From assembly GCA_000004985.1 (NCBI GenBank), contig GG738876.1: a DNA stretch of 64,000 bases; one strand, given 5' to 3'. Each line of letters begins with the position of its first letter. The first letter of the stretch is position 1. This document shows, piece after piece, positions 5,418-62,418 of the stretch. This DNA is from Naegleria gruberi (taxonomy: Eukaryota). The notes under the pieces were generated by a model that was not told the DNA's origin, searched no databases, and worked only from the letters and a program-made list of their open reading frames with translations. Position numbers and translations under genes: made by a program.

Positions 5418-5913
5418 CTAATCAATAATTGATTGTAAACTTTGTAAATGAGCCTCAATTCGAGAAGATTTCTTTTTCATATCTTCAATTTCCTTATTAA
5501 ATTGTTCAGTGAGAGGTTCCACTAGCATCATTTGTGATTTTTCAAATCGGAGTCGTATTGTTTTTTTCTCATTCTCTAGTGAACTAATTACTTTTTGAAT
5601 GGTGGCATGATTTTTTTTGGATTTGATGATTTCCTCTTGTTTTAATTCGAATAGTTCGAGAAGGTTCATTTTGGCGACTGTGTAATTCTCTGCTCGAATG
5701 ATCGTGAATGATTTTAAGTGGTACTTTCACAATAATTACAATTAATTTCGAATAACCTTCCAGCAGATTCCTCCAAAATATTTCGGAATTAATTAATTGA
5801 TCGTGAGTTGATTTGTCGATAGAGAGAATACTTCCAAGATGTTTCACGGAGAGGAATGTAAATATTTCTATTAGAATTTCTGTTGGTAAAGAGATTGACA
5901 TTTTTTTAAACAT
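5418..5913 (-). CDS. F-box-like protein with C-terminal coiled coil. Two exons, with a short intron around 5700-5750.
   Basis: The N-terminal LPTEILIEIFTFLSVKHLGSILSIDKSTHD is an F-box motif. The downstream ORF 5418..5669 is coiled-coil-like and in another frame. The best donor/acceptor pair found is gtaatt...gcagag (about 51 nt). Exact junction is uncertain. Confidence 0.4.
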
Positions 5914-13854: not shown

Positions 13855-15183
13855 ATGAATCATCTTAAACGATTGATTGTTTTGGCTCTTGTAGTTGTAC
13901 TCATGTTTGTCGTCTCACTTTCACATGCTCAAGACGAACAACAGGAAAACAACAATAAGAGACCACCAAGACCTTTACCTTCAGGTAGACCACCAAGACC
14001 ACATCCAGATCATTCTGGAGGGCGACCACCTCGCCCATTCCCATCTGGAGGAAGACCACCACGTCCAGATCATTCAGGAAGAAGACCAAGACCAGATCAT
14101 TCTGGTGAGAGACCACATCCACCAGGTCCACAACCAGATCATTCAGGAAGAAGACCACCAAGACCTGGTCCACATCCTGGTCAATCAGGATTACCACCAC
14201 GTTCTGATGAACAAGATGGTCAAAGTGAAAATAGACCTCGTCCACCAAGACCTCATCCAGAACGTTCAGGTGAAAGACCACATCCAAGACCTTTCCCATC
14301 TGGAGGTAGACCACCAAGACCAGACCACTCAGGAAGAAGACCAGGTCCACATCCAGATCATTCTGGAAGACCACCTCGTCCACATCCAAGACCAGAACCA
14401 TCTTCTGAAGATGACGAACACTCTGATAGACTTGAACAAGGAAACAGACCTCGTCCACCAAGACCAGATCGTTCAGGTTTGCCACCTCGTCCATTCCCAT
14501 CTGGAGGAAGACCACCAAGACCAGATCATTCAGGAAGAAGACCACATCCAAGACCTGAACACTCTGGTGAGAGACCACATCCAAGACCAGCTCACTCTGG
14601 TGAAAGACCACCAAGACCAGATCATTCAGGAAGAAGACCAAGACCAGGTCCACAACCAGACCAATCGGGAAGACCACCTCGTCCTTATCCAGAACATTCT
14701 GGTGAAAGACCAGGCCCACGTCCTCAACCACAAGAATCAACTTCATCCTTAATAGGTGAAAGACCACCAAGACCTGATAGATCTGGAAGACCACCTCGTC
14801 CATTCCCATCTGGAGGCAGACCACCAAGACCAGGCCCATCTGGAGGAAGACCAGGTCCTGGACCAGGTCCACAACCTGATGTTTCATCTGTTGAAGATCC
14901 ACTCATTGATGCTCAAAATAATACCAAGAATGAAATTCCAAATGGACCATCCAATGGTTCTGATGCTTTGGCCATTGTCTTTGGTGTTATTGGTGCAATT
15001 GTTGTCATGGCTGCTATTGCTCTTGTCATTGGAAGTGGAATTGCTGTTTTTGTTTTGAAGAAGAAGGGTTATTCACTCTCATTGAAGAAACATCAAATGT
15101 TGAGAGATGAAGACGAATTTGAATATCCACAACAAGACCAAACTCCAATTTACTCTGTCAATCAACCAGTTGCTCAAAATTAG
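13855..15183 (+). CDS. type I membrane protein with a Pro/Arg-rich tandem-repeat ectodomain (GRPPRPDHSGRRP-type units)
   Basis: Signal peptide MNHLKRLIVLALVVVLMFVVSLSHA, then more than 20 imperfect repeats of RPPRPxPxHSG(E/R)RP. Near the C-terminus is a TM (LAIVFGVIGAIVVMAAIALVIGSGIAVFVL) followed by KKKGY and a roughly 40-aa tail. Confidence 0.6.
   Translation: MNHLKRLIVLALVVVLMFVVSLSHAQDEQQENNNKRPPRPLPSGRPPRPHPDHSGGRPPRPFPSGGRPPRPDHSGRRPRPDHSGERPHPPGPQPDHSGRRPPRPGPHPGQSGLPPRSDEQDGQSENRPRPPRPHPERSGERPHPRPFPSGGRPPRPDHSGRRPGPHPDHSGRPPRPHPRPEPSSEDDEHSDRLEQGNRPRPPRPDRSGLPPRPFPSGGRPPRPDHSGRRPHPRPEHSGERPHPRPAHSGERPPRPDHSGRRPRPGPQPDQSGRPPRPYPEHSGERPGPRPQPQESTSSLIGERPPRPDRSGRPPRPFPSGGRPPRPGPSGGRPGPGPGPQPDVSSVEDPLIDAQNNTKNEIPNGPSNGSDALAIVFGVIGAIVVMAAIALVIGSGIAVFVLKKKGYSLSLKKHQMLRDEDEFEYPQQDQTPIYSVNQPVAQN
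13960..14880 (+). repeat. about 39-nt imperfect tandem coding repeats (Pro/Arg-rich) within the 13855..15183 gene
   Basis: Recurring ggaagaccaccaagaccagatcattcaggaagaagacca units. They produce the artefactual track ORFs 13895..14752(+) and 13901..14902(-). Confidence 0.6.
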
Positions 15184-29047: not shown

Positions 29048-32017
29048 ATGTCTTCGTACGGAACGCACGGCGATGGTGGAGATGGGTTGGAATCGAGTAA
29101 ACAACTCAATGTGCTCCAAAAGATTGCTAGAAATAGAGTGGTGAATATTGTTGGTGCGATAATATTATCAATTATTTTATTATTGAGTATTGGATGTTGT
29201 GTTGTTGTTGGTGTGCTTCATTCACATTTGCTTTTCCAATGTGGATTTGCTGAATTTATATTTATGTTACTTCTTGAAGGCGCTACATTCTTCTTCTGTA
29301 TTTATCACTTGTACAATATTTACAAGTTTTTCAAGACTAGAGCACGACACTCTGGTAAGAAGGGAATTTCCGCTATTGTTGCTGCTTTATGTTCATCAGA
29401 AGTAAATCAATACAATGCATATTCTGATTCCAGACAAGGAAATGAAGAAGATGATTTTGATGATGAAGAAGATGATGAAGATGACGAAGAAGAGGAGGAA
29501 GAAGAAAGCAAATTTTCCAAGTTTGTTGTCGGCTTTTTGAAGATTGCTGCCAATGCTATTGCTGTTTTATGTTTCATCATTTTGGTACTTTTCACAGTTG
29601 TTGTCGTTCCATTGCAACAACAAACCTACCCAACTTATAACGGTACTCTTAAACTTCCAAAGTTTACACCAAAGGGATCTTCTGCTCCTACAATTTCACG
29701 TGAAAGTAATGGTGTTGTTCACATCAAGGCTTCACACGATTATGATTTATATTTCGCACAAGGTGTAGCTGTTGCTCAAGATCGTTTGTGGCAATTGGAA
29801 TTTAATCGTAGATTGTCAAATGGTATTTTGGCTGAAGTTGCTGGTGCTGATGCTGTCAATGTTGACAGTTGGTTCAGAACTCTCGGATTTGCTCGTTCTG
29901 CTGCCAACATTTTACCAACCATTGATGCTGAAACTCTTTCATTCATTCAAGCATATTGTGATGGTATTAACTCTTATATTAATAGTAATCCACCACTTCA
30001 ACCTGAATTTGTTCTCCTCAACACTAAACCAGTTGAATGGACTCCAAGTGATGTTATTGCTTATATGAAGTTTGTTTCATTCTCTCTTTCTGATAATATG
30101 GAAAAGGAAGTTTGGAGATTCAAGATGATGCAAAGAAATATCACAAAGGACAGAGTTAACGAATTGGTTCCTTTCTACCCAACTGATATGCCAACTATTT
30201 TGAGTTTGGAAGAAATGAATTTGCAAAACGTTCCAGTTGAAGAAAGAGAAAAGATTGAAAAGGCTCAACAAGATGATTCTGCTGCTTTTATTCCAAAGGC
30301 TATTCACAATTTGACCATGTCTGTCATGGAAGAAATGTTCGCTTCATTGGAAGAATCTGGTGAATGGGGTAAACAAGCTGTCAGATCAGTTTTGAAGGGT
30401 ATGGTTGCTCCAGATATCACTGGTAACAAGGCCTCAAACAATTGGGTTCTCGGAACCAAGATTACAGCAAACAATGGATCATTGTTGGCTAACGATCCTC
30501 ATTTGGATTTGACTGCTCCAGGTATTTGGTATTTGGCTCATTTGGAAGGTCCAACTCACAATGTTATTGGTTCTACTTTTGTTGGTCTTCCAGGTATTGT
30601 TATTGGTAAGAATGATTTCATTTCATGGGGTGTTACTACTGGTCTTGTTGATGCTCAAGATTTGTACGTCATGTCCGAAGTTGAAGAAGGTAAAACTTAC
30701 AACTACAATGGTAAAGTTCTCCAATATGAAACTCGTACCGAAACTATTAATGTTAAGGGAGCTGCTGCCAAGACTATTACTGTTAAGGAATCTGTCTACG
30801 GTCCAGTTATTAATGACCACTACCAAGTTGATGGTAACGTTTTGTGTTTGAAGTCTTTGACTACCTACACTAATGATACCACACTCCAAGCTTTCCTCAA
30901 GTTGAACAGAGAAGCTAAGGATTGGAACTCATTTGTTGATGTTGTCTCCTTGTTCGTTTCCCCATCCCAAAACTTTGTCTTTGCTGACAAGAGTGGTAAC
31001 ATTGGTTACTATTTGGCTGGTTTGGTTCCAATTAGAAAGGAAGGTCACAATGGTAGATTCCCAGTTATTGGTGATGGTAGCTATGATTGGCAAGGATTTA
31101 TTCCAGCTGCTGAAAAGCCAAGCGTTTACAATCCAAAGAAGGATTACATTGCTTCTGCAAACAACAGAGTTACTCCTGTTGGTTACAAGTACAGTATTAC
31201 CCAAGATTGGTACTCTTTCTATAGAGCTAGCAGAATTGTCTCATTGATTGAAACTGCTATTGAAAAGGGAACTCCACTCAATTTTGAATACATGAAGAAG
31301 ATGCAACACGACGTTCACTCACCAGTCTTTGATCAATTCAAGTTTGTTTTTGAAGCTATTCCAAAGTTCAGAAATCTCACTGAAAATAAGGAAAAGTTGA
31401 GAGAAAAGTTGATTAATTGGGACGGTGATGAAATTTTGTACTCTCAATCTGCTTCCATCTTTGAAATGTGGTACAAGATTATGGGTAACCTCACCAAGGT
31501 TGAAACTGTCAATAGATGGTCTTTCGGTCCATATCTTTACAATGCCTTGAAGAATGGTGATAGTGCTTGTGAAAATTATCACAACACTACTTGTATGTTG
31601 TTCGCTATTGACAGCTTTGAAAATGCCATTGATGCTCTTGAAGCCACTTACGGTTCTATTCCATTGTGGGGTTCTGATATTCACGAATCTGAATTCCCTA
31701 ACCCGGTAATGGATAATACTGTTCTCAAATGTTTGGCTGGAGCTACTCGTACTACTGTTGGTGGTTCTTCAACCATTAATGTTGGTGAAACTCAATATCC
31801 TGCCCTCAATTCAAGATGGGGTGTTTCTTATAGACAAGTTGTTGATTGGCGAGGCAATCAAGCTTCATTCATCATTCCACTCGGTCAATCTGGTAACTTC
31901 TTATCTCCTCTTTACACCAACTTGTTAGAAATGTGGTCTGACCCAACTGGTCAATACTTGGACATGAAATCTGCTGGTTACACTGCAACCAATACCCTTT
32001 CTCTTTCCTCTCAATAA
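29048..32017 (+). CDS. penicillin amidase / N-acyl-homoserine-lactone acylase family Ntn-hydrolase with an N-terminal 3-TM anchor and an acidic (D/E) loop
   Basis: Family motifs ...GNKASNNWVLGTKITANNGSLLANDPHLDLTAPGIWY (Ser nucleophile at the start of the beta-subunit, SNxW) and downstream segments conserved with PvdQ/PGA. The N-terminus has three hydrophobic helices flanking EEDDFDDEEDDEDDEEEEEEE. 990 aa, single exon. The true ATG is at 29048. Confidence 0.8.
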   Translation: MSSYGTHGDGGDGLESSKQLNVLQKIARNRVVNIVGAIILSIILLLSIGCCVVVGVLHSHLLFQCGFAEFIFMLLLEGATFFFCIYHLYNIYKFFKTRARHSGKKGISAIVAALCSSEVNQYNAYSDSRQGNEEDDFDDEEDDEDDEEEEEEESKFSKFVVGFLKIAANAIAVLCFIILVLFTVVVVPLQQQTYPTYNGTLKLPKFTPKGSSAPTISRESNGVVHIKASHDYDLYFAQGVAVAQDRLWQLEFNRRLSNGILAEVAGADAVNVDSWFRTLGFARSAANILPTIDAETLSFIQAYCDGINSYINSNPPLQPEFVLLNTKPVEWTPSDVIAYMKFVSFSLSDNMEKEVWRFKMMQRNITKDRVNELVPFYPTDMPTILSLEEMNLQNVPVEEREKIEKAQQDDSAAFIPKAIHNLTMSVMEEMFASLEESGEWGKQAVRSVLKGMVAPDITGNKASNNWVLGTKITANNGSLLANDPHLDLTAPGIWYLAHLEGPTHNVIGSTFVGLPGIVIGKNDFISWGVTTGLVDAQDLYVMSEVEEGKTYNYNGKVLQYETRTETINVKGAAAKTITVKESVYGPVINDHYQVDGNVLCLKSLTTYTNDTTLQAFLKLNREAKDWNSFVDVVSLFVSPSQNFVFADKSGNIGYYLAGLVPIRKEGHNGRFPVIGDGSYDWQGFIPAAEKPSVYNPKKDYIASANNRVTPVGYKYSITQDWYSFYRASRIVSLIETAIEKGTPLNFEYMKKMQHDVHSPVFDQFKFVFEAIPKFRNLTENKEKLREKLINWDGDEILYSQSASIFEMWYKIMGNLTKVETVNRWSFGPYLYNALKNGDSACENYHNTTCMLFAIDSFENAIDALEATYGSIPLWGSDIHESEFPNPVMDNTVLKCLAGATRTTVGGSSTINVGETQYPALNSRWGVSYRQVVDWRGNQASFIIPLGQSGNFLSPLYTNLLEMWSDPTGQYLDMKSAGYTATNTLSLSSQ
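29441..29506 (+). repeat. GAA/GAT (Glu/Asp) trinucleotide-rich coding microsatellite within the acylase gene
   Basis: gaagaagatgattttgatgatgaagaagatgatgaagatgacgaagaagaggaggaagaagaa. It also yields a poly-Ser antisense ORF (29407..29595) in the track. Confidence 0.6.
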
Positions 32018-37238: not shown

Positions 37239-38905
37239 TTATTCGAAATTTAGATCATCATAACATTCCACAAATTCATCAGAATACCAAAGTGCTCTGA
37301 GAAGAATCTTTCTTGGAAGATTCATCATTTCAGCTTCTTTCAACATTTCCTCAACAATTTGATTCAATTCCAATAGAAATTCTCCCATTCTGTCATAGAG
37401 TGAAGAATTGACTGATAACTCCTCAAGATGATTGGATGCTCTGTTCCAAGCAACTACAGCCTTGTTGAATAATTCATCTTCTTCTCCTACTAAACTGGAA
37501 TAGGTCTGAATAACTTCACTATATTTGTCAAGAACTGATCTTTTGGCCAACTTGAAACTTCCTTTTCTGTTGATGGAATCAATTAATTGGACCAGTTTAG
37601 TTCTGTTTTGTTGAGAATGTTCTGCTGGAGAGTTCAAAACACATTCACAATAATCAATCATAAGTTGGTCAACTGGAAATTCTGGAAGTGGATGCTCTAC
37701 AAAATTGTTGATTTGTTTGTAAACTTGATTTTGTAAAGTGATGAGGGAATAATCTTTTGGAAATAGCTCTTCACTCAAGTCATTTAACATGATGAAATTC
37801 TTTCTCTTCTTTCTACTACTTTCGAATGGTTTAAAAGAAACCTTTGCATTTGGAAAGAGTAATCTAAATGCAAAAGAAATGCTTCCACACACGAAAGGAT
37901 GAGATTCAGGAGAGTGAATCAAATTAATCTGATTAATCTTGGATGGAATCTCCTGCAATGCATATTTAGCAATGTGAAATAATTTGAAACAACTTTCAGA
38001 AATGGTCAACTCTTCACAATTTGGAAACATTTTAGCAATTTGCTTCATTCTAACCCCTTGTCCTTGAAATCAAAATCAAAGTCACCAACTGACAATTTCT
38101 TGACACTTGGCAGTATCTTGTCAACTGAACCAAGGTAATCAACTTTCAAGGTACATGGATTGGAATGTACATGTTCAATAGATGGTACACTGATACTTTC
38201 CATATTTTTGGCACAAGGTGGTACTTTGAAATTTTGTTTTTGGTTGAGGAATTTGACATTTCTGAGATTTCCAATACTTGCTTGAACTAATTTACAATCT
38301 TCTTCAGAAATTGGAGAGTTAAAGACGAGTTTTCTATATTGGGATGATTTCATATCCAAGAATTGAACGATCGAATTGAATGGATTGTGTTCTCTTTGGT
38401 AAACATTCTTAAATGAGATGGATGATAAGGTTGGGGTAATTCTGACAGGTTGTCTCTTTGGCAGTTGACTTGTGTCACATTGGCTATTGCTGAAATGCAA
38501 TTTTCTTAAATTGCAATCATGTGGATTGAGAATGGAGAGTAAAATTCTTGGATTAATTTCACATCCTTCAAATTCGAGTTCTGTAAAACGATTGATAAGT
38601 GACACATGCTTTTCCTTCAGCTGATCAACACCTGACAGTATCAGCTTGGCATCCATTGCAAATTTCTTCAATCCCAAATAATTTCCAACACATTCAATAT
38701 CTTTAACTGTACAACAAGTCAATTCTTCCCTTTCTCTCAACATTTTCCTAATATAGGATTGTTGAGAAGTAATTCCATCACATGCTCGATGACACAAACC
38801 AACCATTCTTCTCAACATGATCAAAATTGCATCATTTGGAATGAAACTCAATATTTGACATGCAATTTCTGGAACGAATAGAATAGAATAATTAATAGAA
38901 TGCAT
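37239..38905 (-). CDS. F-box/LRR-like protein interrupted by a frameshift or assembly error (track ORFs 38045..38905 and 37239..38048 overlap at ATGA)
   Basis: N-terminal ORF: VPEIACQILSFIPNDAILIMLRRMVGLCHRACD (F-box-like) plus Leu-rich repeats. Its TGA stop overlaps the ATG of the next ORF (MKQIAKMFPNCEELTISESCFKL..., also Leu-rich). There is no room for an intron between them. Confidence 0.4.
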
Positions 38906-40235: not shown

Positions 40236-41946
40236 ATGTTTAAAAAAATGAAAAAACAAGTTTCGTCCACTTTCTTACTGGTTATTTATTGTATTTTCGC
40301 TGCTTGTTTCTTGCTCAGTTCTGCTGAAGGATTAGTTCCATCCACACAACCATACTTTTTATGGCCTAATCCACAAACAGGAGAAGCAACAGTTTATTTT
40401 AAAAACGGAGGTTCGAAACCAGTCGAAACTTTGTGGGTTGGTTATGCTGCTTGGAAAGATGCCCCACAAGTTAAAAGCAAAATTTCCAATTTGATTTCAA
40501 GAGGAATTGTTCCATTCATGTAGGTTTTGATTAACTTATTTTATTGGAAATATTATTGGAAAGTCAATCTTATCATTTTGGAGATAATGGACTCAGAGGA
40601 CAATTCGAATTAGCTCTTGCTTTTGATAGAGAAATTGCTAGTGCTATTGGAAACTCTTTTGCCATTGTAAATTTGGAACCAGAATGGGATGTTGATGTTG
40701 TTTTGAATTTATTCAAATCTTCTCAAGGAACTCAATCATTATTGAATAGAATTCAAACATTTAAGAGTCTGGCTCCAAATTCAGTGGTTGTGAGTACTCC
40801 AGGATTGTGGAAATCAGCTCAGGACTATTCATTCTTTAGCTCTGTAGATTCCAAATTGAATGCTCGTGCCATGTTGATGCATGTTGTGAATTCTGGAGAT
40901 GCATCATGTGCTAAGAAACAAGATGGATCATTGTGGCCATATGGTGTAAAATCTTTGAGTGAGGGAATTTCAATGGTCAAGAGTAAGATTGATGAAAATT
41001 TGAACAAGATGACACAAGCTTGGGGTGGTTCTTTACCATTTGAGTGGATTTTGAGTGATGTTGGTGTTACTAGTTGTGGATGGGGAGCTGATGGACAAGC
41101 TGCTATTGTTAATGAATTGATTAAGGTGAGTAATTTTTTATATAACAATGAATATTCGAATTATTGAAATATTGTGGAATTATTTATAATATCAGAATTT
41201 GGATTGTTTATATGCTAGTGGATTCCGTGGATTTAATTTGAGAAATTCAGGTCCATCTGATTTATGGGAAAGAGCTATGGGTATCAACAATGAAGGAATG
41301 TTCACATTCACCACAAGTGCAGCAACCATGAATGTTATTAAAACTGGATTGACCAAGGTTAATGCATTCCTTGTCAATGGCCAAAAACCTTCATGCTCTT
41401 CAAATAATGGTGGATCAAATTCTGGTTCAACTTCCTCATACAAGGTCAATGTCATTAGTGGAAGTAATGATTGGTGGACTCAAATTGAAGTTTTGCCAAC
41501 TTCATCTGTTCAAACAGTTGTCTTGAAATGTGGATCTGCATCAACTTCATTGGAAAGACCAGCTTGGTCCCAAACTCAATTTGTCAAAGGACTTTCCGCA
41601 CAATGCCCAATGGGATCAGATATTCAAGTTATTGTCAACTCAAAATATACCTATCCTATCAAGTATACTGTTGGAGCTAGCTCTGCAAATACTCTCAGCG
41701 ATATGCCACCTCTATTCCAAAATTCTCCAACCAAATANNNNNNNNNNNNNNNNNNNNNNNNNNNNNNNNNNNNNNNNNNNNNNNNNNAGTTTGAAGCAAA
41801 TTAGTGAAAATACTTGGGAAGGTGAAATGCAAAATGGTTTTTGCCCAATTGGTGCCAATGTTCAATTGTTTGTAGTGTTGAGAAATGGACATGTTGAAAG
41901 ATATGATATTATTTATGGTTATGATAATGTTGCCAGATTGTATTAA
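40236..41946 (+). CDS. secreted multi-exon protein with C-terminal tandem Trp/Cys-containing beta-domain-like repeats (possible carbohydrate-binding). The gene is interrupted by an assembly gap.
   Basis: Signal peptide MFKKMKKQVSSTFLLVIYCIFAACFLLSSAEG. Exons are about 40236..40519, 40564..41125 and 41196..>41747, with the stop at 41946. Introns are 44 nt (gtaggt...gaaag) and 70 nt (gtgagt...atatcag). Repeated C-terminal segments are ...DWWTQIEVL...CPMGSDIQVIVNSKYTYPIKYTVG and ...NTWEGEMQNGFCPIGANVQLFVVL...YDIIYGYD. Family unassigned. Confidence 0.45.
41748..41787. other. assembly gap (40 N) inside the 40236..41946 gene
   Basis: A run of n characters. The reading frame differs on the two sides, so the true gap length is unknown. 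Confidence 0.95.
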
Positions 41947-41991: not shown

Positions 41992-43323
41992 CTATTGGTA
42001 TGTCTCATCAATTGGTGAAATGCATGTTTCATGTTTCTTCCCAAACAAAAAACCAATTGTTTCAAAGACAGTCGCAAGAGTAACAGGTGCAAATGTGAAA
42101 TAAGAACAATGACCACAACCAAGTATTGCCAAACTGACACCTAAAGCAAAACGAGACAGTCCAAAAAAACCTACTTTAAGTTTCTCCTTAATATATAGGG
42201 CATTCACTTCCCAACTATCGGCCAATAGTGTGACTGCTATTGGAAGAGCACTCAAACATCCACCTCCCAATTTATAACACGACACTCCCAAGAATAGGGA
42301 TATTATATAATTTGATAGTAAGCTTTGGATAGTAACTGTTGGTGGCACAATCATTTTGAAAATCTTTTTCAACTCACTGATGCTTACAACTCCCAAATAA
42401 ATCCAAATTGGGAAGGAAAGATAATAATTGATCGTATTTACAAGTATATGGGAATAGCTCATCTCAATTCCAAGTATACTATACAGTAATGACTTTACAG
42501 AATACATTCCATATCCATTAAATAGTAGAATGAGTCCAGCAAATACAGGTATTGCCAAATTGGCAACGAATAAATTGACATCCTTATGAAATTTAGTGGT
42601 AAATCTATGAATATTCAATTTTCTCAATATTCCAATCCCTCTTAATAGTGAAAATGCTGTAAATCCACACCAAACACCTCCCAATAGAGTTTGCACGACG
42701 GCAAAGCAATACGGAATCCACCAAAACACTCCATTCCAATCTTTTTCACCAACCTGGTTACTGGAATACTGTCCAACACAAACCTGAGCAGCAATACTCA
42801 TCAATGTGAGTATCACACCAAACAGTACAGTTGGATCTCTCTTTGCCACACGTGCAATCAGCTCCTGAACTTTTCTATCAAAAGCAGAAAATTTAACATC
42901 CATTCTAGCAAAATAAAAAGCATTCACCAATTTCTCCTTTGAATTCAGTGCCATTCTACATTCCTCTCTCTTCTCCTCCTCACTTTTAATTTGCCTCTCT
43001 ATTATGGTGGCAGTGGAGGAGGAGGCGGTCCAGTAATCTCTCACCAAATCATAGATGGTTCCAAATGGTCGTTTTATCAATTTTTCAAATAAGAAACCCC
43101 TTCTCAAGTATTCACTTGTTTCAATCTTGATCATCTCGAATAGATTTATCGATTGATCATCATTTGTACTACTATTACTTGTATTGGAGAGAGAATTTTC
43201 AACAAGTTTTTCAAATCTCCGACAAGTATGAGATAATATGATTAAATCTCTTGGATTCCGAGAGGTAAAATTCAATATGGTGAGGAGCATTTCATCAGGC
43301 AATTCGAGTAGTGGTTGCTTCAT
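41992..43323 (-). CDS. F-box domain fused to a polytopic (about 8-9 TM) membrane domain
   Basis: The N-terminal LELPDEMLLTILNFTSRNPRDLIILSHTCRRFEKL is an F-box. From residue about 170 onward there are multiple hydrophobic helices (VLFGVILTLMSIAAQV, VFWWIPYCFAVVQTLLGGVW, LFVANLAIPVFAGLILLF, ...). 443 aa, single ORF from ATG 43323. Confidence 0.55.
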   Translation of the reverse strand: MKQPLLELPDEMLLTILNFTSRNPRDLIILSHTCRRFEKLVENSLSNTSNSSTNDDQSINLFEMIKIETSEYLRRGFLFEKLIKRPFGTIYDLVRDYWTASSSTATIIERQIKSEEEKREECRMALNSKEKLVNAFYFARMDVKFSAFDRKVQELIARVAKRDPTVLFGVILTLMSIAAQVCVGQYSSNQVGEKDWNGVFWWIPYCFAVVQTLLGGVWCGFTAFSLLRGIGILRKLNIHRFTTKFHKDVNLFVANLAIPVFAGLILLFNGYGMYSVKSLLYSILGIEMSYSHILVNTINYYLSFPIWIYLGVVSISELKKIFKMIVPPTVTIQSLLSNYIISLFLGVSCYKLGGGCLSALPIAVTLLADSWEVNALYIKEKLKVGFFGLSRFALGVSLAILGCGHCSYFTFAPVTLATVFETIGFLFGKKHETCISPIDETYQ

Positions 43324-43444: not shown

Positions 43445-44275
43445 ATGGCCACACGTTCCGTGATGAAAATATTCATGAAGAGTTATATGCAATTTGCAAA
43501 TCGATACTATGTACCTTTCATGTTCAGGTTTGCATTGAAAAAGGCTTTGAAATTTGATCCGAATGTGATGAGTGGTCGACAATTATTGAAAGATATCAAG
43601 GATGAACAGGATATTTTGCTCCGATCACAAACTACAAGGAGTTTCATGGAGAAGGAAGCTCGTGAGAGGAATATGACTGATGATAGTTGGTTGCCTTTGG
43701 TTTGTCAATATATTGCATCGAATAAGGTGTTGGCTAGGGGGTTATTTGAAGGTGATGAAGCAAAAGCCATGTTGTATATTAATGATAGAGCTATTTCACC
43801 TCCTGTGGAAAGAATGATGCAATTGGTTTTGGGAAAAAAGAATCAGAAAGGTTTACTAGGTGGAATGTTATTTAGAAAGGATGAACAGAATGAAAATTCG
43901 GATGTTTTGGGAAATATGTGGACATTGATGTGTGTTACAAATGAAATGTTGCAATGTTGGATATTATCTCACGAAATTTATAATGAAATTTCTGAGCAGG
44001 ATGGTCATGTACATAGGGTATCTTCAATTAAGGTTCACGACTGTATGCTCAATAGATTTTTCAGAGAGCATGAGGCAACTCATTTGATGCCAGTAATTTG
44101 CTCTTTTGACTCTGTGTGGGCTAGGAATGCTTTTGAGAATACTGGATACAAATACAGAAGAAATCAAACACTCAGCTTGGGAGGAAATCATTGTGCGTTT
44201 GATTTTTCGAAAGGTTTCGAAGAGAATGAGAAGGATGTAGTATTGGATGAATTGGAAAAAATAAGAAAACAATAA
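43445..44275 (+). CDS. hypothetical protein with an HExxH motif (REHEATHL), possible small zinc-metallopeptidase-like protein
   Basis: 276-aa ORF from ATG 43445, after a 13-nt A-run. HEATH is followed 30-40 aa later by conserved acidic/His residues (GGNHCAFDFSKGFEENE). Not assignable to a specific peptidase family by eye. Confidence 0.3.
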   Translation: MATRSVMKIFMKSYMQFANRYYVPFMFRFALKKALKFDPNVMSGRQLLKDIKDEQDILLRSQTTRSFMEKEARERNMTDDSWLPLVCQYIASNKVLARGLFEGDEAKAMLYINDRAISPPVERMMQLVLGKKNQKGLLGGMLFRKDEQNENSDVLGNMWTLMCVTNEMLQCWILSHEIYNEISEQDGHVHRVSSIKVHDCMLNRFFREHEATHLMPVICSFDSVWARNAFENTGYKYRRNQTLSLGGNHCAFDFSKGFEENEKDVVLDELEKIRKQ

Positions 44276-44287
44276 TGAAAATGACAA

Positions 44288-47200
44288 TTAATTTAATTTG
44301 TTCTTTTCCATTTCACTTTTAAGGATATTGGCCAACTTGTAAATATCAGGAAGTTGGAGATTTTGCTGTATCTCTTGAGGTATGTTTAGGGAGTAGTTGT
44401 CCTCGTGATTGTAAGAGTTGTTAAATAAATTATTTGGGTGTGACTGAAATTGAATACTTTCAAATAATTGGTTAGATCTTCTTTGCTTGAACAGTTCCAT
44501 TCTTTCAATAAGATAGGCATACTTATCATTTCCGTATCTATCTTTCCATGTATTTAGCGCATTAATATCCAAATCTATCATATCCAAGAGTTGCTGCTCG
44601 AATTGTGATATAACTTGTTTGTGAGCTAATGGATTTTGAATATCTTGTGCACTGAAAGTTGAACCAAAGTAATTTGAAAGCTCCAAAGTTTCTACAATGG
44701 AAGCAAATGGAAGTTGTGAAATTTCTGAAAGTGCCTCCAACAATTCTAAATGAACCTCAGCCGCACTCGCAACTGAATTCATCAAGTTTGGTTTCAACAA
44801 TTCAAAATTCTCAATAGTGGTACATTTTGTAACAACATTGGAGAGTTTTAAAATTTCAGAATTGAGAAAATGTAAAACTCCCTTATTTGTCATTGTGGAA
44901 TTAGGGGAGGAGTTCTTTTGGGTTGCTTTGGTCTTTCTGTATACTTCCTTAACAAGGAATAACTTGGTACCAAAGACAAACAAGTTGAAAATACACAAGG
45001 CCAATGGTAGCTGTAAATCATTGAATTTTCTTCTCTTTTCATGTTCTCTGTAAATCTTGGAGAGGTTATCGATTATTTCCATGTATGAGGATAGATTGTC
45101 TAGGGTTGGTTGTACCTCTGTTAACATGTGAAGTACATGCTTAGGGATTCTGCCTGTGATATATAAATGCATATCAGCCAAAATTTTACAAAAGTAAGAA
45201 CTGAAAGAATATCTCTTGAAATTGGATGAGTCCATCTTTACAAGTCCATCAGAGAGATGAAAAGTACCCTCTGGACTGACTTTACCCAACAGTGACAAGT
45301 CATTTGATGTTTCTGGTGATTTGATAGCAAATGGTGGATCGATACGTAACATGACAGGATATTGATCCTTGCCACATGCATCAAGAGTAATTCCACACAA
45401 AATTCTAAATTTGAGCAATTTAAAATCAGCCTCCTTTGGAAGTCTCTCATAAATGTGACGAGTAGGTGATGATTGAGTATTTCGAAGTAAGAGCTCAGTT
45501 GAATTAATTCCCAAATTTTGCATAATATTCTTAATATTAGGATCGTCAGCATGTTTGGTCATTAAATCCCTCAAAGAATTATCATTTGAATCTATTACAT
45601 ATTCTTCCAGTCTATCAAAGTCAATCTTGTGTCTATTTCCAAAGTAAAAATCAACAAAGTTCAAATAAAATTTTGCTGTATCAGAATCTCCCTTGCTTGC
45701 GCAATAAACAGACAAATGACAATATGTAGTAGCAACCAAAATATTTGACCAAGAATCAAAGAAATTAGCAAGGCAATTCTTTGCCTTTTGGAATGATAAA
45801 AATCCCTGTTGATCGTGTCCCAATGCCTGACAAGTTACAGCATGAATAGAGTATAACAGAGAAAGAATTTCAGGAGAGTAGTTTGAATTACTGTCAATAC
45901 TTTCGCTCTCAAATAAAGCTTGCTCTATTAAATTAATGTCTACAAGTGAATATCCTAGAGAAATTACTCCTTCATAAAGTTCAATAGTTTTCTTCCTATA
46001 AGCAGCAATATTCAATTTTTCAGCAATTTGATTTTGGAAAAATGGTAATTGTGAAGTGTTTGATAGCATTTCAGTCCAGTTAATTCCATGTTGATCCAAA
46101 TTATTTGAAAATCCCATTTGTGAGGCAAGAATTCGTTTAAGCTCATCTGTAAACTCTAAATGAACATCATTATTCTTACTTGTTTGTGGATATGGTTGAT
46201 ATCTAGAGTTATTGCTGTTGTTTGTAGTTGCTACCACTGTTGTTGATGAACTAGCTTTGGCTGATTTAGTATTTGATTGATTATTATGTCTTCCCTTCTT
46301 TTTTGGTGACCTGTAAAGACAATCAACACCTCTTTTTGTGCATTGCGAACAAGAAGGCCACATTTTATCACACTTTAAAGTAATAAATATTAATTTGTTG
46401 TTAAATTGTTATTCACTTACCTTTTTGTGCCTACTTCTGCAGTTAACACAAGCAATTGGGAAATACATCTTCTCAGGATCTTGATTCAACTCGAGTGAAC
46501 CAGGATGTGGCACGTGTTCATCTTGATTATTATCCATAGGCTTTTCTGTCAAACTTCCATTACTGCTGCTTGTAATCATTTGGTTATCATTTAAATTGGT
46601 AACATCCAAACTAGGGTTTTGGTTATTATTATTAAACATATTGGATGAATTAGATGTCGTTACTGTTGTTGGTTGAAGAGTGTTAATGATTTGTTGTAGT
46701 ATCTCATCGTTTGAATTATTCATATTTACTGTTGATACATTGTCGTTCGGTTTCATATAATTATTTACATCAGAAAGTAATAATTGTGTCATATTATCCA
46801 TATTATTGTTGTTATTCATATTATTGTAATTGTTATTATTATTATTAGAAGGGAAATATTGATTTGTTGATTGTAACAATTGGTTTAAATCGAGATTATT
46901 CAATAAATTATTATTAGTGGAGGGGTTTGGTTGATTAATGGCTTTAGGAGTTTGTAATCCCATCATTAAATTTTGAACAATACTTGATGAATCCATAGTA
47001 CGAGAATTTAATTGACCATTTGATGTTGATGATGGAATTAAGTTATTGTTACTACTTGAATATTCTCCACCATTTTGCTGTTGTTGTTGTTGAGAGAATA
47101 ACAAATTGATGAGCATATCCTGTTGATTGTTTGTTGTATTCATCATTGATTGTCCTCCAACAGTGTTATTATTATTGCTTTGATTTGTTTTAAAGGAGGA

Positions 47201-47623
47201 AGGAGTATTGCCGATGATGTTTTCCAATGATAATGCTCTATTCATAGAAGAGGAGGTTGCTGTTGGATTGTTTAGTTGTGTGGATGGAGATAGAAATTGT
47301 TGGTGTACACTCGACGATAGATTCAAAGTATTGGTGAGTTGGCTGTTCAATCCATGTGGTGGACTATTTTGGGTGTTCGTAAATTGTTGACTATTAATTA
47401 GGTTTTGGAGTTGCTGTTCGAGCAATAAATTTTTATTATTGTTATTACTCAAAGATCCATTATTATTATTATTCAACAGTGTCGTTGTTGTTGATATGGA
47501 CGAATTGTTTGTCGTGAGCATCTGTGATGATGAGGAATGCTGCAGCGATTGTTGCTGTTGTTGTCCAGAGTTTGATGGTTGTTGGTTTGTCCTCATTTTT
47601 TTTTGATGATGTGAAACAATCAT
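44288..47623 (-). CDS. GAL4-type Zn2Cys6 transcription factor with a long poly-Asn/Gln/Ser N-terminus, 2 exons (46421..47623 and 44288..46372)
   Basis: A 48-nt intron (gtaagt...ctttaaag) splits the zinc cluster: ...FPIACVNCRSRHKK|CDKMWPSCSQCTKRGVDCLYRSPKKKGRHN. Downstream is a helical, middle-homology-like region (LLYSIHAVTCQALG..., FYLNFVDFYFG). Confidence 0.75.
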
Positions 47624-47805: not shown

Positions 47806-49994
47806 CTAACGAGTATGTAAAAATCTGTGAGGATGATTTCTCTTGGTTTCTTCATAAACTTCCAAACAAAATCCAACATGCATTTGAAGGTGAAGATATC
47901 TTCTGTGTAAAAGTGGTGACCTCTCTGTCATTTGTTTGAGGTTTCTCAGGTCTTGATAGAGATATTGAGCGAGCTCTTCTACGTAATCATACAATAAATT
48001 AATGCTTGGATCATTTAGTAGATTGGATAACACATCATAGTGAATCTTGGCAGCAACTTCAACTGAGTAAATAACAGGGAGTTGGCAATACTTGAAAAAT
48101 GGTAATTGGGTTACCTTGGTAATTTCATTGGCGGCAGAGGTTATATCTGCCGAAGAAGATATTCTGTACTTGTGTTGTTTGAATAGAATCAAAGCTTTAA
48201 CTCCAAGACAAACAACAAGGAATGTGTAGGTACGATCAGAATTCATACTTGAAAATACCTTCACAATCATGTCCAATTTTGTCATTATTTGTTGAACTGG
48301 TTCTTCCAAGCTGAAAAGTTGTGGCCTTCCAGAGTGGGACATAATAGATGACCTAAGTTGGTTGAATGTAGGACTGCTCACAGCAGTATTGAGACACGCA
48401 ATGTGCTTCTCAACAACAAATTTAGAATACTCATCAAAATCTAAAATGTCACCAAATGTCAAATTGTTGACAATTTTCTTATTAATTGCATCAATCTCAC
48501 TTTCCACAACATCTGTTAGTGAGGATAATTAGAAAATTAATAACCAAAATTTAACAACATACCACTCAAATAGAATAATTCTGAAACACATAGACCTTGT
48601 CTAATAAAACTACAATGTTCATCCATGTCCTTTTCTCTTTCTTTCAAATACCATGTGCAAATAGAATAGAAATATTTGGATCTTGCCACACAATCCAAAT
48701 AACATTTAGAGTTGGCTGCTTTTGAACATGCTGTGGCTGAAGAACATTTGGATGGACTTTTGCATTCAGCACTCAATAGATAGTATGCCATCAACGTGTA
48801 CGTATAAATGACAGAACTGTCATTGGTTTGATCGAAACACTTGGAAATGTGATCTCTTCCCTTCTCGAAAAATATTTTAGCAAATCCCATATTACCAATC
48901 CTGAAGAATGAAATAGCATGCATTAAAAACAAGAATGCCAGCTTGGAGTTTCCTAGGGGCTCTCTAGGGTCAATCTTGTCTTCCAGCTCGCTCTCTAGGT
49001 CAGTTTTTCCTGTAATAGAAACACTGAGCCAATACATTAATTCATCTCTGTTGGATGGTGGGACCATAGAATAGGAAAGACTCTTATACACATCTAATGA
49101 AATATTGTCAAAATATTTTCTATCAAGCTCAATTTGTCGTAAGTTATTGAGATAGGCTCTTTCATTGATATACCTTGATTCTCTTTTCACTGGAATTGGA
49201 ACTGATGGAGGTGATTCCTTCCTTTTGGATATTGTTTTGCTCTTTCTCTCAGTAATTACAGATGAGTCATCAACAAATTGATACTCTACAACACCTGTCA
49301 ATGAATTATTCGAATTTAGTATGGTTTTTGGACCTCTTTTTCTTGCTTGAGCATAAACACATTGCTTTTGTGAACGTAGACAATTGGAGCAACCAGGATA
49401 AGCCACACGGTCACACTTTTTGTGATTCAACTTGCAAAAGATACAAGCATTATTCATCAATACAACATCTACATTTGTTGATTGAGCTGTTATTGAATCT
49501 ATATTTGAAGGACTTGTTTTATCACATGAATTAGAGGCTTTAGAAGATGCTGTAAATGTTGATGAACTCTCGGATGAGTTGTGTACAAGTAAACCTGTAT
49601 TCAGCATTGTGAATGGAGTATTTACCTGTGTAAGATTGAAGAAGTGATCAGTTGTATTGTTGGTAGTGTTTGTTGGTAATGTTGGAGTCTTCTTCTTCGT
49701 ACTTACAAAGGCTGGATTGAAATTGTTTTCCATTTGATTATTACTCCTCATCACATCACTTGATGAAGTGGCTGATGAGGTTGCATGATGATTAGATTGT
49801 TGCGCCATCATTTGTGTGATGTTATTGTTGGAGAACATGTTTTGTGAATTAAATAAGAGGTTTGAGCCAACATTAGGAAGAGTCACCCTTTCGCTCTGAC
49901 CAGTCCAGGAATTTGTCTGTTGGCATGTTGACGAAGAAGGCTGCTGATGCAAGTTCAAATTAAATTGCTGATGTTGTTGTTGATGATGTTGCAT
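47806..49994 (-). CDS. GAL4-type Zn2Cys6 transcription factor with a poly-Gln/Asn N-terminus, 2 exons (48563..49994 and 47806..48512). It is a tandem neighbour of the 44288..47623 gene.
   Basis: ACIFCKLNHKKCDRVAYPGCSNCLRSQKQCVYAQARKRGPK. A 50-nt intron (gtatgt...taacag) joins ...ELFYLS|DVVESEIDAINKK. The true ATG is at 49994; the track starts at an upstream TTG. Confidence 0.75.
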
Positions 49995-51077: not shown

Positions 51078-51150
51078 CGCCCCACGTGGGGCTCGAACCC
51101 ACGACCGTTGGATTAAAAGTCCAACGCTCTACCGACTGAGCTAGCGGGGC
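51078..51150 (-). tRNA. tRNA-Lys (anticodon UUU)
   Basis: The minus-strand read GCCCCGCTAGCTCAGTCGGTAGAGCGTTGGACTTTTAATCCAACGGTCGTGGGTTCGAGCCCCACGTGGGGCG folds as a cloverleaf. It has a 7-bp acceptor stem, D-arm GCTC/GAGC, anticodon loop CTTTTAA, and T-arm GTGGG-TTCGAGC-CCCAC. 73 nt, no intron. Confidence 0.9.
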
Positions 51151-57746: not shown

Positions 57747-57819
57747 TGGAGATGCGGGGTATCGATCCCCGTACCTCTTCCATGCTAAAGAAGCGCTCTA
57801 CCATGTGAGCTACATCCCC
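57747..57819 (-). tRNA. tRNA-Ala (anticodon AGC)
   Basis: The minus-strand read GGGGATGTAGCTCACATGGTAGAGCGCTTCTTTAGCATGGAAGAGGTACGGGGATCGATACCCCGCATCTCCA has the G3:U70 Ala identity pair, anticodon loop TTAGCAT, and T-arm ACGGGGATCGATACCCCGC. Confidence 0.9.
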
Positions 57820-60966: not shown

Positions 60967-62418
60967 ATGGAAATTGCTCATCAAGAAGCGCTCAATGTTG
61001 CTAATTTTCTCGTCATTGATGATATTATTTATGAGGTAATGACCTTTTTACATTCGGAATTTATCATTCGGAATTGTTTGATGGTTTCTAGGCAGTGGTA
61101 TGGTGTGGTGAGGAGAGTTTCTTTAGAATTGAATATTAAAAATTCTGATCAATTAAATTTATTAATTGATGGCTATGATGATGGACTGAATCCAAGAATG
61201 GGTCGATTAAATATTCTGCCACAAGTGAATAGGTTTATTTATGAGTATTATTCAAAACTTGGAAAGGATTTGGTGAGGAAAATAACAAATTCGATGAAGA
61301 ATTTGAGAGAATTGGTACTTGTTGGAGTTGAGTTAGAAATTGATGATGTTAAATGCTTGGTAAATAGTCAATTGACCAGTTTGGATGTTTGCGACAATAG
61401 TATTGGAGATGAAGGGGTTACTCTAATAGCTAATTCATTAAAGCAATTAACAAAATTAGGAATTGGACAAGTAGGAGTTGGAGATGAAGGTGTTAGACAG
61501 TTAGAAAAATTAACTCAACTTACAGAACTCGATGCTAGTTGTAACGATTTCACAATATCTGTTCTTGTACAGGTTATAGATAACTCTCTGAAGCAATTGA
61601 AAACACTTTCAGTTTATTCATGTAACATAGAAGATGAGCATATGAAAGATATTACCACTCTCTCCCAGTTGACATCCCTCTCGGTCGGTATCAATAGAAT
61701 AACCGGAAATTCATTGAAACTTATAGGATATTCAATGAAGGACTTAACATATTTGGAAGTTGCAAATAATGAAATTGGAGATGCAGGTACTGAATACCTT
61801 TGTAATTTGAAAAAATTGAAGGAGCTCAGTATTTCCTCAAACAAGATTAGCCAGTTAGGATTTGAACATATAAAATCCATGGACCAGTTGAGAATACTTC
61901 AATGCAATAACACCAACATAATGAACCAAGTATCTACAATGTCTCATTTGGAAACACTAGTCGTTATTAGCGATTGCAAAATTAATATTGAAATATTTGA
62001 AAGCATGAGCAAGAATATGAAAAGCTTGACGAAATTAAATCTATACAAAAATGCTATCAATGACATGGACTTTGTGAGGTTTATTGCTTCTATTCAGCAT
62101 TTACGTGAGCTGCACCTCGAAAGCTGTTCTATTAACGATAATTCAGTAGAAATTATTAGCTCAATCCAAAATTTAAGAGGTTTATTTGTCCCTTCAAATG
62201 ACATTACAGATGGCGGTGTAAAGCATTTAACAAAATTGACCAGTCTCAGAGAGCTGGACATTTACTGTAATCCTATTGGCCTTGAAGGTGTGAAAATTAT
62301 TAGTTCAGGATTAAAAGGATTGACCTCACTAACCATTAGCAAGAAAGATATTGGAGAAAGGGGACAATATTTGATTCGTTTAATGAATTTGGATACACTT
62401 ACTTATGTGGATAAATGA
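60967..62418 (+). CDS. F-box-like N-terminus plus RNI-type leucine-rich-repeat protein, 483 aa
   Basis: About 14 repeats of ...L(T/K)xLxLxxNxIGDEGVxxL... (LTSLDVCDNSIGDEGVTLIANSLKQLTKLGIGQVGVGDEGVRQL...). The N-terminal IDDIIYEVMTFLHSEFIIRNCLMVSRQWYGVV is F-box-like. ATG at 60967 follows an A-run. Confidence 0.65.
   Translation: MEIAHQEALNVANFLVIDDIIYEVMTFLHSEFIIRNCLMVSRQWYGVVRRVSLELNIKNSDQLNLLIDGYDDGLNPRMGRLNILPQVNRFIYEYYSKLGKDLVRKITNSMKNLRELVLVGVELEIDDVKCLVNSQLTSLDVCDNSIGDEGVTLIANSLKQLTKLGIGQVGVGDEGVRQLEKLTQLTELDASCNDFTISVLVQVIDNSLKQLKTLSVYSCNIEDEHMKDITTLSQLTSLSVGINRITGNSLKLIGYSMKDLTYLEVANNEIGDAGTEYLCNLKKLKELSISSNKISQLGFEHIKSMDQLRILQCNNTNIMNQVSTMSHLETLVVISDCKINIEIFESMSKNMKSLTKLNLYKNAINDMDFVRFIASIQHLRELHLESCSINDNSVEIISSIQNLRGLFVPSNDITDGGVKHLTKLTSLRELDIYCNPIGLEGVKIISSGLKGLTSLTISKKDIGERGQYLIRLMNLDTLTYVDK

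What the first reader, a model, noticed from the sequence alone, without database searches (positions are those of the whole stretch)
41992..43323. F-box domain fused to a polytopic membrane domain; four F-box-like genes in the window
An N-terminal F-box (LPDEMLLTILNF...) is followed by about 8-9 predicted TM helices. This would place an SCF substrate adaptor in a membrane, an uncommon architecture. The window also carries F-box-like N-termini at 5418-5913, 37239-38905 and 60967-62418, indicating an expanded F-box repertoire.
Basis: partly seen in the sequence, partly recalled or inferred. Interest (0 to 1): 0.5.

Follow-up and report, generated by a model that had tools for sequence, protein, structure and literature searches.

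The report
Membrane-embedded F-box protein in Naegleria
A single-exon Naegleria gruberi gene encodes a genuine F-box (the handle that plugs a protein into SCF ubiquitin ligases) joined to about eight membrane-spanning helices of no known family; this design is rare and unstudied, and its function is inferred only.

Summary
The window is Naegleria gruberi. ORF 41992-43323(-) is exactly the annotated protein NAEGRDRAFT_69101 (XP_002675804.1, UniProt D2VJN3, "F-box domain-containing protein"). The main observation holds. The N-terminal F-box passes both Pfam gathering cut-offs. After a ~120-residue linker, residues 165-427 hold about eight hydrophobic helices. Charge distribution favours both termini, and so the F-box, in the cytosol.

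The membrane domain matches no Pfam family and no solved structure, and AlphaFold failed on it. An exhaustive HMMER scan of 1.84 billion proteins found only two weak relatives, both fragments: one covers the F-box and linker, the other the membrane domain. A metagenome scan found two intact 461-codon genes with the same F-box, linker and 8-helix layout under strong purifying selection. Their membrane part is not demonstrably homologous to this one.

The "four F-box genes" claim is only half supported: two pass HMM thresholds, the LRR gene is sub-threshold, and 38045-38905 has no support. An expanded repertoire cannot be judged from one window.

Best reading: an integral-membrane SCF substrate receptor or sensor. 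The architecture is shown; the mechanism is inferred. It is a new variant of a known kind, of moderate interest.

The parts
41992..43323 (-). Whole gene: single-exon ORF of 443 codons plus stop, equal to NAEGRDRAFT_69101 (XP_002675804.1, UniProt D2VJN3)
43192..43311 (-). F-box, aa 5-44 (LLELPDEMLLTILNFTSRNPRDLIILSHTCRRFEKLVENS). The LP, the hydrophobic core positions and the C-R-x-(W/F) motif are present. It has F37 where the consensus has W, and a 2-residue insertion relative to FBXW7.
   Evidence: Pfam PF12937 28.2 bits (cut-off 24.3) and PF00646 21.5 (cut-off 20.5). 32.5 and 25.7 bits on the N-terminus alone. Best PDB alignment is the FBXW7 F-box.
42832..43191 (-). Cytosolic linker, aa 45-164, charged and predicted helical. 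It holds a conserved L(R/W)RG...RPF.T(I/L)Y...RD motif (aa 73-96, window 43036-43107) shared with P0003. It ends in the positively charged juxtamembrane stretch RVAKRD.
   Evidence: alignment to P0003 runs over aa 3-112; helices only from a low-confidence AlphaFold model
42043..42831 (-). Polytopic membrane domain, aa 165-427. Best model has 8 TM helices: TM1 165-185 (42769-42831), TM2 198-227 (42643-42732, preceded by the conserved interfacial WWIPY, aa 201-205), TM3 249-271 (42511-42579), TM4 293-313 (42385-42447), TM5 327-348 (42280-42345), TM6 353-373 (42205-42267, the weakest), TM7 384-404 (42112-42174), TM8 409-427 (42043-42099). A conserved amphipathic segment lies at aa 272-292 on the predicted non-cytosolic side.
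   Evidence: Hydropathy. K+R 19 inside against 3 outside. No Pfam hit at E<=10 and no PDB hit. Homologous to the L001 membrane ORF (Smith-Waterman z=19.8; phmmer 45 bits).
41995..42042 (-). Short C-terminal tail, aa 428-443 (GKKHETCISPIDETYQ), predicted cytosolic
5418..5913 (-). Separate small F-box gene. Exon 1 is 5757-5913 and exon 2 is 5418-5689, joined by an inferred 67-nt GT-AG intron at 5690-5756. The product is 142 aa: an F-box followed by a charged, possibly coiled-coil tail.
   Evidence: PF12937 23.8 bits on the ORF and 26.3 bits on the N-terminus. Intron inferred from the sequence. The exact spliced product is not in the protein collection.
60967..62418 (+). LRR protein NAEGRDRAFT_50099. 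It may carry a divergent F-box at aa 18-52 (61018-61122), but this is below threshold.
   Evidence: LRR_4 at 4.7e-24. F-box-like 13.2 bits, E 0.08, and F-box 12.9 bits, E 0.11. hhalign not significant. Identity.
38045..38905 (-). ORF whose N-terminus looks F-box-like by eye (VPEIACQILSFIP) but has no statistical support. It is not counted as an F-box gene.
   Evidence: No Pfam hit at E<=10. hhalign probability 1.3%.

Best explanation
NAEGRDRAFT_69101 is an integral-membrane F-box protein.

Shown: a bona fide F-box at the N-terminus, a ~120-residue linker, and a C-terminal domain of about eight hydrophobic helices belonging to no described family, all in one exon.

Inferred topology: TM1 acts as a signal anchor. 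The N-terminal 164 residues, including the F-box, and the C-terminus stay in the cytosol.

Inferred mechanism: the F-box binds Skp1 and so recruits Cul1-Rbx1 and an E2 to the membrane surface. The 8-TM domain takes the place of the usual LRR, WD40 or Kelch substrate-binding module. It would either recognise membrane-protein substrates within the bilayer, or sense a lipid or luminal ligand and couple that to ubiquitylation on the cytosolic face. In function it would resemble polytopic RING ligases such as Hrd1, Doa10 or RNF145, but be built on the cullin-RING chassis.

It belongs to a very small, fast-evolving, apparently lineage-restricted family.
For: - F-box passes both Pfam gathering scores. 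It aligns position by position with the FBXW7 F-box, including the LP, the hydrophobic core and the CR-x-aromatic motif.
- The F-box is conserved in relatives: P0003 scores 38 bits and L002 31.3 bits.
- There are 8-9 hydrophobic helices. K+R is 19 on the predicted cytosolic side against 3 on the other, with a positive flank before TM1, which places the F-box in the cytosol.
- The ORF is single and uninterrupted, so the fusion is not a gene-model artefact.
- The same order of F-box, linker and membrane domain appears on ENA contig L001, whose membrane domain is clearly homologous (z=19.8).
- The same layout appears in two intact 461-codon ORFs, L002 and L003. These differ by 54 synonymous and 11 nonsynonymous changes, dN/dS 0.049. 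An F-box plus 8-TM protein is therefore maintained by selection.
- Precedent that a membrane-spanning F-box protein can still bind Skp1: Arabidopsis CFB binds ASK1 through its F-box and needs its TM for membrane localisation and for its phenotype (PMC5853388).
Against: - No direct evidence of Skp1 binding, ligase activity, localisation or expression.
- The F-box score is modest, and W is replaced by F at the canonical Trp position.
- Membrane topology comes from simple hydropathy and positive-inside counting, not a trained predictor. TM6 is weak, and L001 has a 12-residue gap in the TM5/6 region.
- AlphaFold models were unusable, with mean pLDDT 36.7 and 34.8, so there is no fold-level hint of function.
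- The family is tiny. L001 carries two frame disruptions, and P0003 is a 150-aa fragment.
- The L002/L003 membrane domain shows no significant similarity to this one. Their F-box scores only 19 bits at library scale. Shared ancestry of the whole protein is therefore not proven and could be convergence.
Confidence: 0.55

Rival explanations
1. It binds Skp1 but is not a ligase adaptor. The F-box recruits Skp1 for a non-SCF role at a membrane, for example trafficking or recycling, or assembly of a membrane complex. This would resemble yeast Rcy1 or Skp1 in the RAVE complex (from established knowledge, not tested here).
For: The same F-box evidence applies. The protein lacks any classical substrate-binding domain. 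Non-SCF F-box/Skp1 complexes are established in yeast (own knowledge).
Against: Most F-box proteins tested do assemble into SCF complexes. Nothing in the sequence separates the two possibilities.
Confidence: 0.15
2. The membrane domain is the functional unit, such as a transporter, channel, receptor or enzyme of an undescribed family. The F-box then serves mainly to control that protein's own abundance through SCF-dependent auto-ubiquitylation, or as a regulatory dock. On this reading it is not a receptor for other substrates.
For: The best-conserved motifs between the query and L001 lie in the membrane domain: WWIPY, VK..Y...G.E.S, NTI.N.YL, and LG.SL...G.G..SY.T.AP.TL. Several sit on the predicted non-cytosolic side. 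Autocatalytic turnover of F-box proteins is well known (own knowledge).
Against: No similarity to any transporter, channel or enzyme family in Pfam or the PDB. No structure model is available to test for a pore or a pocket.
Confidence: 0.2
3. The F-box is a decayed or chance motif with no Skp1 binding, and the gene simply encodes an orphan polytopic membrane protein.
For: Scores lie only 1-4 bits above the Pfam cut-offs on the full-length protein. The canonical Trp is replaced by Phe. The gene is an orphan.
Against: Two independent Pfam F-box models both pass their cut-offs. The motif is conserved, and scores higher, in P0003 (38 bits) and in L002 (31 bits). In L002/L003 the whole ORF including the F-box is under strong purifying selection.
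Confidence: 0.08
4. It is an annotation or assembly artefact: two genes fused, or a pseudogene.
For: A 50-N scaffold gap lies 200 nt downstream, at 41738-41787. The homologous contig L001 has two frame breaks.
Against: The ORF is one uninterrupted 443-codon frame in 34% GC DNA, with the F-box and TM helices in the same frame and no gap inside the gene. The same architecture is intact in L002 and L003.
Confidence: 0.02

Closest known systems
Arabidopsis CFB (AT3G44326) and its two paralogues: F-box proteins with a C-terminal transmembrane helix (PMC5853388)
   Same: An N-terminal F-box, no recognisable protein-interaction domain, and a membrane-spanning segment. CFB binds the Skp1 homologue ASK1 through the F-box, and both the F-box and the TM are needed for its activity. 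This shows that a membrane-inserted F-box protein can be a working SCF subunit.
   Different: CFB has one C-terminal TM helix used as an anchor, and most of the protein is soluble. Here about 60% of the protein is an 8-helix membrane domain. There is no sequence similarity beyond the F-box: nothing of this kind was recovered.
Lipid-anchored or single-pass F-box proteins: FBXL2 (CaaX geranylgeranylation), Legionella AnkB (farnesylated; PMC2916131 listed), the FBXW7-beta isoform (N-terminal TM). These are from own knowledge.
   Same: SCF substrate receptors brought to a membrane surface.
   Different: Those are peripheral or single-anchor proteins that keep classical LRR, ankyrin or WD40 substrate-binding domains. 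The Naegleria protein has none, and the membrane domain itself is the only candidate recognition module.
Polytopic RING E3 ligases of the ER and endomembranes: Hrd1, Doa10/MARCH6, gp78, RNF145, TRC8 (own knowledge; reviews listed)
   Same: The proposed working principle: a multi-pass membrane domain that recognises membrane substrates or lipids, coupled to a cytosolic module that recruits ubiquitylation machinery.
   Different: There is no RING domain and no homology (no Pfam hit). The catalytic part would be supplied in trans by Skp1-Cul1-Rbx1.
Canonical soluble F-box families: FBXL, FBXW, FBXO
   Same: The F-box motif. The best solved-structure match is FBXW7.
   Different: There is no LRR, WD40, Kelch or other soluble C-terminal domain.

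Membership tests
F-box protein superfamily (Pfam PF12937 F-box-like / PF00646 F-box) | A ~40-50-residue F-box motif scoring above the curated HMM threshold | tested here: met
   PF12937 28.2 bits against 24.3, and PF00646 21.5 against 20.5. 32.5 and 25.7 bits on the N-terminus alone.
F-box protein superfamily (Pfam PF12937 F-box-like / PF00646 F-box) | Hallmark residues: the L-P dipeptide, the hydrophobic helix-1 and helix-2 core, and C/V-x-R/K-W in helix 3 | tested here: met
   The alignment to the FBXW7 F-box shows LP, E, L/I/L/F core positions, DL, and TCRRF against TCRYW. The Trp is replaced by Phe. P0003 keeps the Trp.
F-box protein superfamily (Pfam PF12937 F-box-like / PF00646 F-box) | Binding to Skp1 and assembly into an SCF complex | not testable with these tools
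   Needs a biochemical or two-hybrid test with N. gruberi Skp1.
F-box protein superfamily (Pfam PF12937 F-box-like / PF00646 F-box) | F-box accessible to the cytosol or nucleus | tested here: inconclusive
   Positive-inside counting (19 against 3 K+R) favours a cytosolic N-terminus. No trained topology predictor and no experiment was available.
Classical FBXL / FBXW / FBXO-Kelch substrate receptors | A C-terminal LRR, WD40, Kelch or other soluble substrate-binding domain | tested here: not met
   No Pfam family other than the F-box at E<=1 on the whole protein, and none at E<=10 on aa 150-443.
CFB-type membrane-anchored F-box proteins (Arabidopsis) | A single C-terminal TM anchor and sequence relatedness to CFB, AT2G27310 and AT2G36090 | tested here: not met
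   About 8 TM helices rather than one. The exhaustive phmmer scan returned no plant protein.
Polytopic RING E3 ligases (Hrd1, Doa10/MARCH, RNF145 type) | A RING or RING-CH domain fused to a multi-pass membrane domain | tested here: not met
   No RING-type Pfam hit. The resemblance is functional analogy only.
Proposed F-box-8TM family (query, L001, P0003; possibly L002/L003) | The membrane domain and the linker are homologous across members | tested here: inconclusive
   Query against the L001 membrane domain is clearly homologous (z=19.8; 45 bits, E 7e-7 at library scale). Query against the P0003 F-box and linker gives 38.7 bits, E 5.7e-5. Query against the L002/L003 membrane domain is not significant (hhalign probability 0.2%; z=0.45; block-shuffle z<=1). 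With L002/L003 only the architecture, size, a colinear 8-helix pattern and the F-box are shared.

The most novel reading that the evidence does not exclude
A previously unrecognised class of cullin-RING (SCF) substrate receptor in which a dedicated 8-helix membrane domain of a new fold replaces the soluble recognition domain. Substrates or ligands would be read inside or across the bilayer, and the signal passed to a cytosolic F-box. This would be an SCF counterpart of the polytopic RING ligases, confined to heteroloboseans and related protists.
Probability: 0.35. Interest if true: 0.6.

Novelty: new variant of a known kind. Interest (0 to 1): 0.4.

Why it matters
All well-studied F-box proteins are soluble, or merely tethered by a lipid or a single helix. 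Membrane-embedded ubiquitin ligases are thought of as RING-type enzymes. A multi-pass F-box protein would show that the SCF system also evolved an intramembrane receptor. It would give a tractable entry point in Naegleria, through Skp1 pull-downs, into how early-branching eukaryotes degrade or sense membrane components.

The membrane domain is also an undescribed family, with no Pfam, PDB or usable AlphaFold information. The practical weight is limited. It is one orphan gene in N. gruberi with a handful of environmental relatives, and it has no functional data.

Tried and rejected
- Word-indexed protein searches with the protein, with a 3-sequence profile and with P0002 returned only the queries themselves.
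- The look-up of encoding contigs has no record for P0001.
- AlphaFold2 on the full protein (3-row alignment) and on the membrane domain alone (2 rows) gave mean pLDDT 36.7 and 34.8. No fold search was run, because matches to such models would be meaningless.
- Sequence search of the PDB with the membrane domain gave only chance-level hits to LAGLIDADG endonucleases, at E about 1.
- Pfam at E<=10 on the membrane domains of the query, L001 and L002 gave nothing credible.
- I tried to prove that the L002/L003 membrane domain is homologous to the query's. hhalign, Smith-Waterman against shuffles and global alignment against block shuffles that keep the hydropathy pattern were all negative.
- I had thought the L002 F-box was closer to the query than any other F-box. 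I dropped this after phmmer at library scale gave only 19 bits.
- A viral-contig scan found no relative, so nothing points to a giant-virus origin.
- tblastn found no paralogue in the window.
- Literature searches for the assembly and WGS accessions GCA_041447055 and JAESGV found nothing, so the source organisms of P0003 and L002/L003 remain unknown.
- hhalign of the window's own F-box profile against the N-termini of the LRR gene and of 38045-38905 was not significant.
- The exact spliced product I inferred for the small F-box gene is not in the protein collection.

Full report
**Identity of the window and the gene**

The window is AT-rich at about 33-35% GC, gene-dense, and carries long ORFs. 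ORF 41992-43323 on the minus strand has 443 codons. It is 100% identical over its full length to Naegleria gruberi NAEGRDRAFT_69101. The accessions are EFC43060.1, XP_002675804.1 and UniProt D2VJN3_NAEGR, named 'F-box domain-containing protein', on a 396,977-nt scaffold.

In DNA of this composition about 7% of random codons are stops. An open frame of 443 codons therefore cannot be chance; my arithmetic gives about 1e-15. A 50-N scaffold gap lies at 41738-41787, outside the gene.

**The F-box**

Pfam gives F-box-like (PF12937) 28.2 bits against a gathering score of 24.3. It gives F-box (PF00646) 21.5 bits against 20.5. Both lie at residues 5-44. On the first 66 residues alone the scores rise to 32.5 and 25.7.

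The best solved-structure match is the F-box of FBXW7. The alignment covers the L-P dipeptide, the hydrophobic core and TCRRF against TCRYW. Two small departures are F37 in place of the usual Trp and a two-residue insertion.

**The membrane domain**

Kyte-Doolittle and Wimley-White 19-residue scans find hydrophobic segments at about 165-185, 198-227, 249-271, 293-313, 327-348, 353-373 (weak), 384-404 and 409-427. An amphipathic stretch lies at 272-292.

An 8-TM model with both termini inside places 19 Lys+Arg in cytosolic loops and 3 in the other loops. The flank before TM1 (RVAKRD) is positive. The F-box is therefore predicted to be cytosolic, as an SCF role requires. These are simple calculations and not a trained predictor. 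TM6 is marginal, and the true count could be 7 to 9.

The domain matches no Pfam family even at E<=10 and no PDB sequence. Two AlphaFold2 runs with 3-row and 2-row alignments gave mean pLDDT of 36.7 and 34.8. I therefore ran no fold search.

**Relatives**

Word-indexed searches found only the protein itself. An exhaustive phmmer scan of 1.84 billion cluster representatives found just two other proteins at E<=0.001.

- P0002 (242 aa) comes from an ENA metagenome contig and aligns to residues 175-418, the membrane domain.
- P0003 (150 aa) comes from a 597-nt contig of assembly GCA_041447055.1. It aligns to residues 3-112, covering the F-box and a conserved linker motif, RPF.T(I/L)Y...RD. Its own F-box scores 38 bits.

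The ENA contig is L001, 1580 nt. Upstream of the membrane ORF it carries F-box-like sequence: MGPSLDHLPD, then a frame shift, then LLLHILLFAVNDPIVNIIRYSHINHRMERIL. A linker follows, then a second frame shift just before TM1. The gene order is therefore the same, but the contig copy is disrupted twice. That could reflect a pseudogene or assembly errors.

The query and L001 membrane domains are clearly homologous. Smith-Waterman gives z=19.8 against shuffles, and phmmer gives 45 bits, E 7e-7 at library scale. Shared motifs are WWIPY, VK..Y...G.E.S, NTI.N.YL and LG.SL...G.G..SY.T.AP.TL. There is no paralogue in the window and no relative in viral contigs.

**A second, intact example of the architecture**

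The metagenome-contig scan returned two loci, L002 and L003, from GenBank WGS JAESGV01 (37-39% GC). Each carries an intact 461-codon ORF. Each ORF has three parts:

- An F-box scoring 31.3 bits on PF12937, 45% identical to the query over 47 residues.
- A ~150-residue charged linker.
- Eight clean hydrophobic helices, with the same alternation of K/R-rich and K/R-poor loops and a very short TM7-TM8 hairpin.

The two copies differ by 54 synonymous and 11 nonsynonymous substitutions. This gives dS 0.21, dN 0.010 and dN/dS 0.049. An F-box plus 8-TM protein is therefore kept by strong purifying selection.

I could not show that their membrane domain is homologous to the query's. hhalign probability was 0.2%. 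Local alignment gave z=0.45. Global alignment against hydropathy-preserving block shuffles gave z<=1. At library scale their F-box scores only 19 bits. The link to L002/L003 therefore rests on architecture alone. It may be deep divergence or convergence.

**The other 'F-box-like' genes**

- 5418-5913(-). The 109-aa ORF scores 23.8 bits on PF12937, just under the cut-off, and 26.3 bits when the N-terminus is scanned alone. A 67-nt GT-AG intron (5690-5756) joins it in frame to the downstream ORF, giving a 142-aa protein with an F-box and a charged tail. That exact product is not in the protein collection, so the model is my inference.
- 60967-62418(+). This is NAEGRDRAFT_50099, a strong LRR protein. 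Its N-terminus reaches only 13 bits, E about 0.1, on both F-box models. An FBXL-like reading is plausible but below threshold, and hhalign adds nothing.
- 37239-38905(-). This is two adjacent ORFs in different frames with no F-box signal.

Scanning 46 long ORFs of the window, exactly two hit F-box families at E<=0.01. An 'expanded repertoire' cannot be judged from one window. I found no paper giving a Naegleria F-box census.

**Mechanism**

The architecture is shown. What follows is inferred.

The cytosolic F-box would bind Skp1 and bring Cul1-Rbx1 and an E2 to the membrane. The 8-TM domain is the only candidate recognition module. It would select membrane-protein substrates, or sense a lipid or luminal ligand. 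Several of the best-conserved motifs lie on the predicted non-cytosolic side or at the interface. This fits a sensing or recognition role but does not prove one.

There are three rivals:
- A non-SCF Skp1 complex.
- A membrane protein whose own turnover is controlled through its F-box.
- A non-functional F-box.

An artefactual gene fusion is essentially excluded by the single open frame and the recurrence of the layout.

**Comparison with what is known**

The only membrane-spanning F-box protein I found in the literature library is Arabidopsis CFB. It has a single C-terminal TM, binds ASK1 through its F-box, and needs both parts for its activity (PMC5853388). Four literature searches for polytopic or transmembrane F-box proteins found nothing else.

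Lipid-anchored F-box proteins (FBXL2, Legionella AnkB) and the FBXW7-beta isoform, known to me from general knowledge, keep classical soluble substrate domains. Polytopic RING ligases are the closest functional analogy but share no domain.

The gene is a member of the F-box superfamily by HMM and motif. It is not a member of any classical subfamily or of the CFB group.

**Verdict**

The main observation is confirmed and the secondary one half confirmed. It is a new variant of a known kind: an orphan, already catalogued but uncharacterised protein with an unusual design. Interest is moderate at 0.4.

Noticed in passing
window 29048-32017 (+): A 989-aa ORF with a full-length penicillin amidase domain (PF01804, E 8.6e-180). 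It is preceded by hydrophobic segments and an acidic D/E run, which shows as a tandem repeat at 29442-29502. This typically bacterial enzyme family in an amoeba may point to gene transfer.
   Followed up: no
L001 134-206 and window 51078-51150 (-): A tRNA-Lys(UUU) gene sits about 50 nt upstream of the F-box-TM homologue on the ENA contig. It matches the window's own tRNA-Lys(UUU) at about 96% identity in translated (tblastx) comparison; that gene lies ~7.7 kb from the Naegleria F-box-TM gene. This is probably just tRNA conservation. The window also has tRNA-Ala(AGC) at 57747-57819 (-).
   Followed up: partly
window 13855-15183 (+): A locally GC-rich stretch (41% against ~33%) encodes a 442-aa Pro/Arg/His-rich protein. 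It is built of degenerate ~10-11-residue repeats (GRPPRPxPDHSG) with a signal-like N-terminus and a C-terminal TM helix. Long ORFs also run in other frames because of the repeat composition.
   Followed up: no
window 4333-5310 (+): A 325-aa secreted-looking protein that is extremely rich in Lys and Cys (KKxC repeats), with DSYAPKP repeats after the signal peptide.
   Followed up: no
window 12478-13326 (-): Two abutting ORFs (12946-13326 and 12478-12945) both hit PEP mutase / isocitrate-lyase-family PF13714 (best E 5e-29). They are probably one gene split by a short intron or a frame error.
   Followed up: no
window 15580-17409 (+), 44288-46363 (-), 46409-47623 (-), 48537-49994 (-): Several genes with Zn(2)-Cys(6)-type cysteine clusters. 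Two pass Pfam Zn_clus (one of them is 48537-49994); the others have the motif by eye only. Three lie in a row just beside the F-box-TM gene. This 'fungal' transcription-factor type appears locally duplicated in Naegleria.
   Followed up: no
window 41738-41787: A 50-N scaffold gap lies inside or at the end of the + strand ORF 41199-41804, about 200 nt downstream of the F-box-TM gene's stop codon.
   Followed up: yes
window 37239-38905 (-): Two ORFs of 286 and 269 aa overlap by ATGA in different frames. Neither exact product is in the protein collection, so the public model probably joins them by splicing, or there is a frameshift.
   Followed up: partly
window 43445-44275 (+): The divergent neighbour, 121 nt upstream of the F-box-TM gene, carries an ATC_hydrolase domain (L-2-amino-thiazoline-4-carboxylic acid hydrolase, PF14196, E 2e-10). 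This family is mostly bacterial.
   Followed up: no
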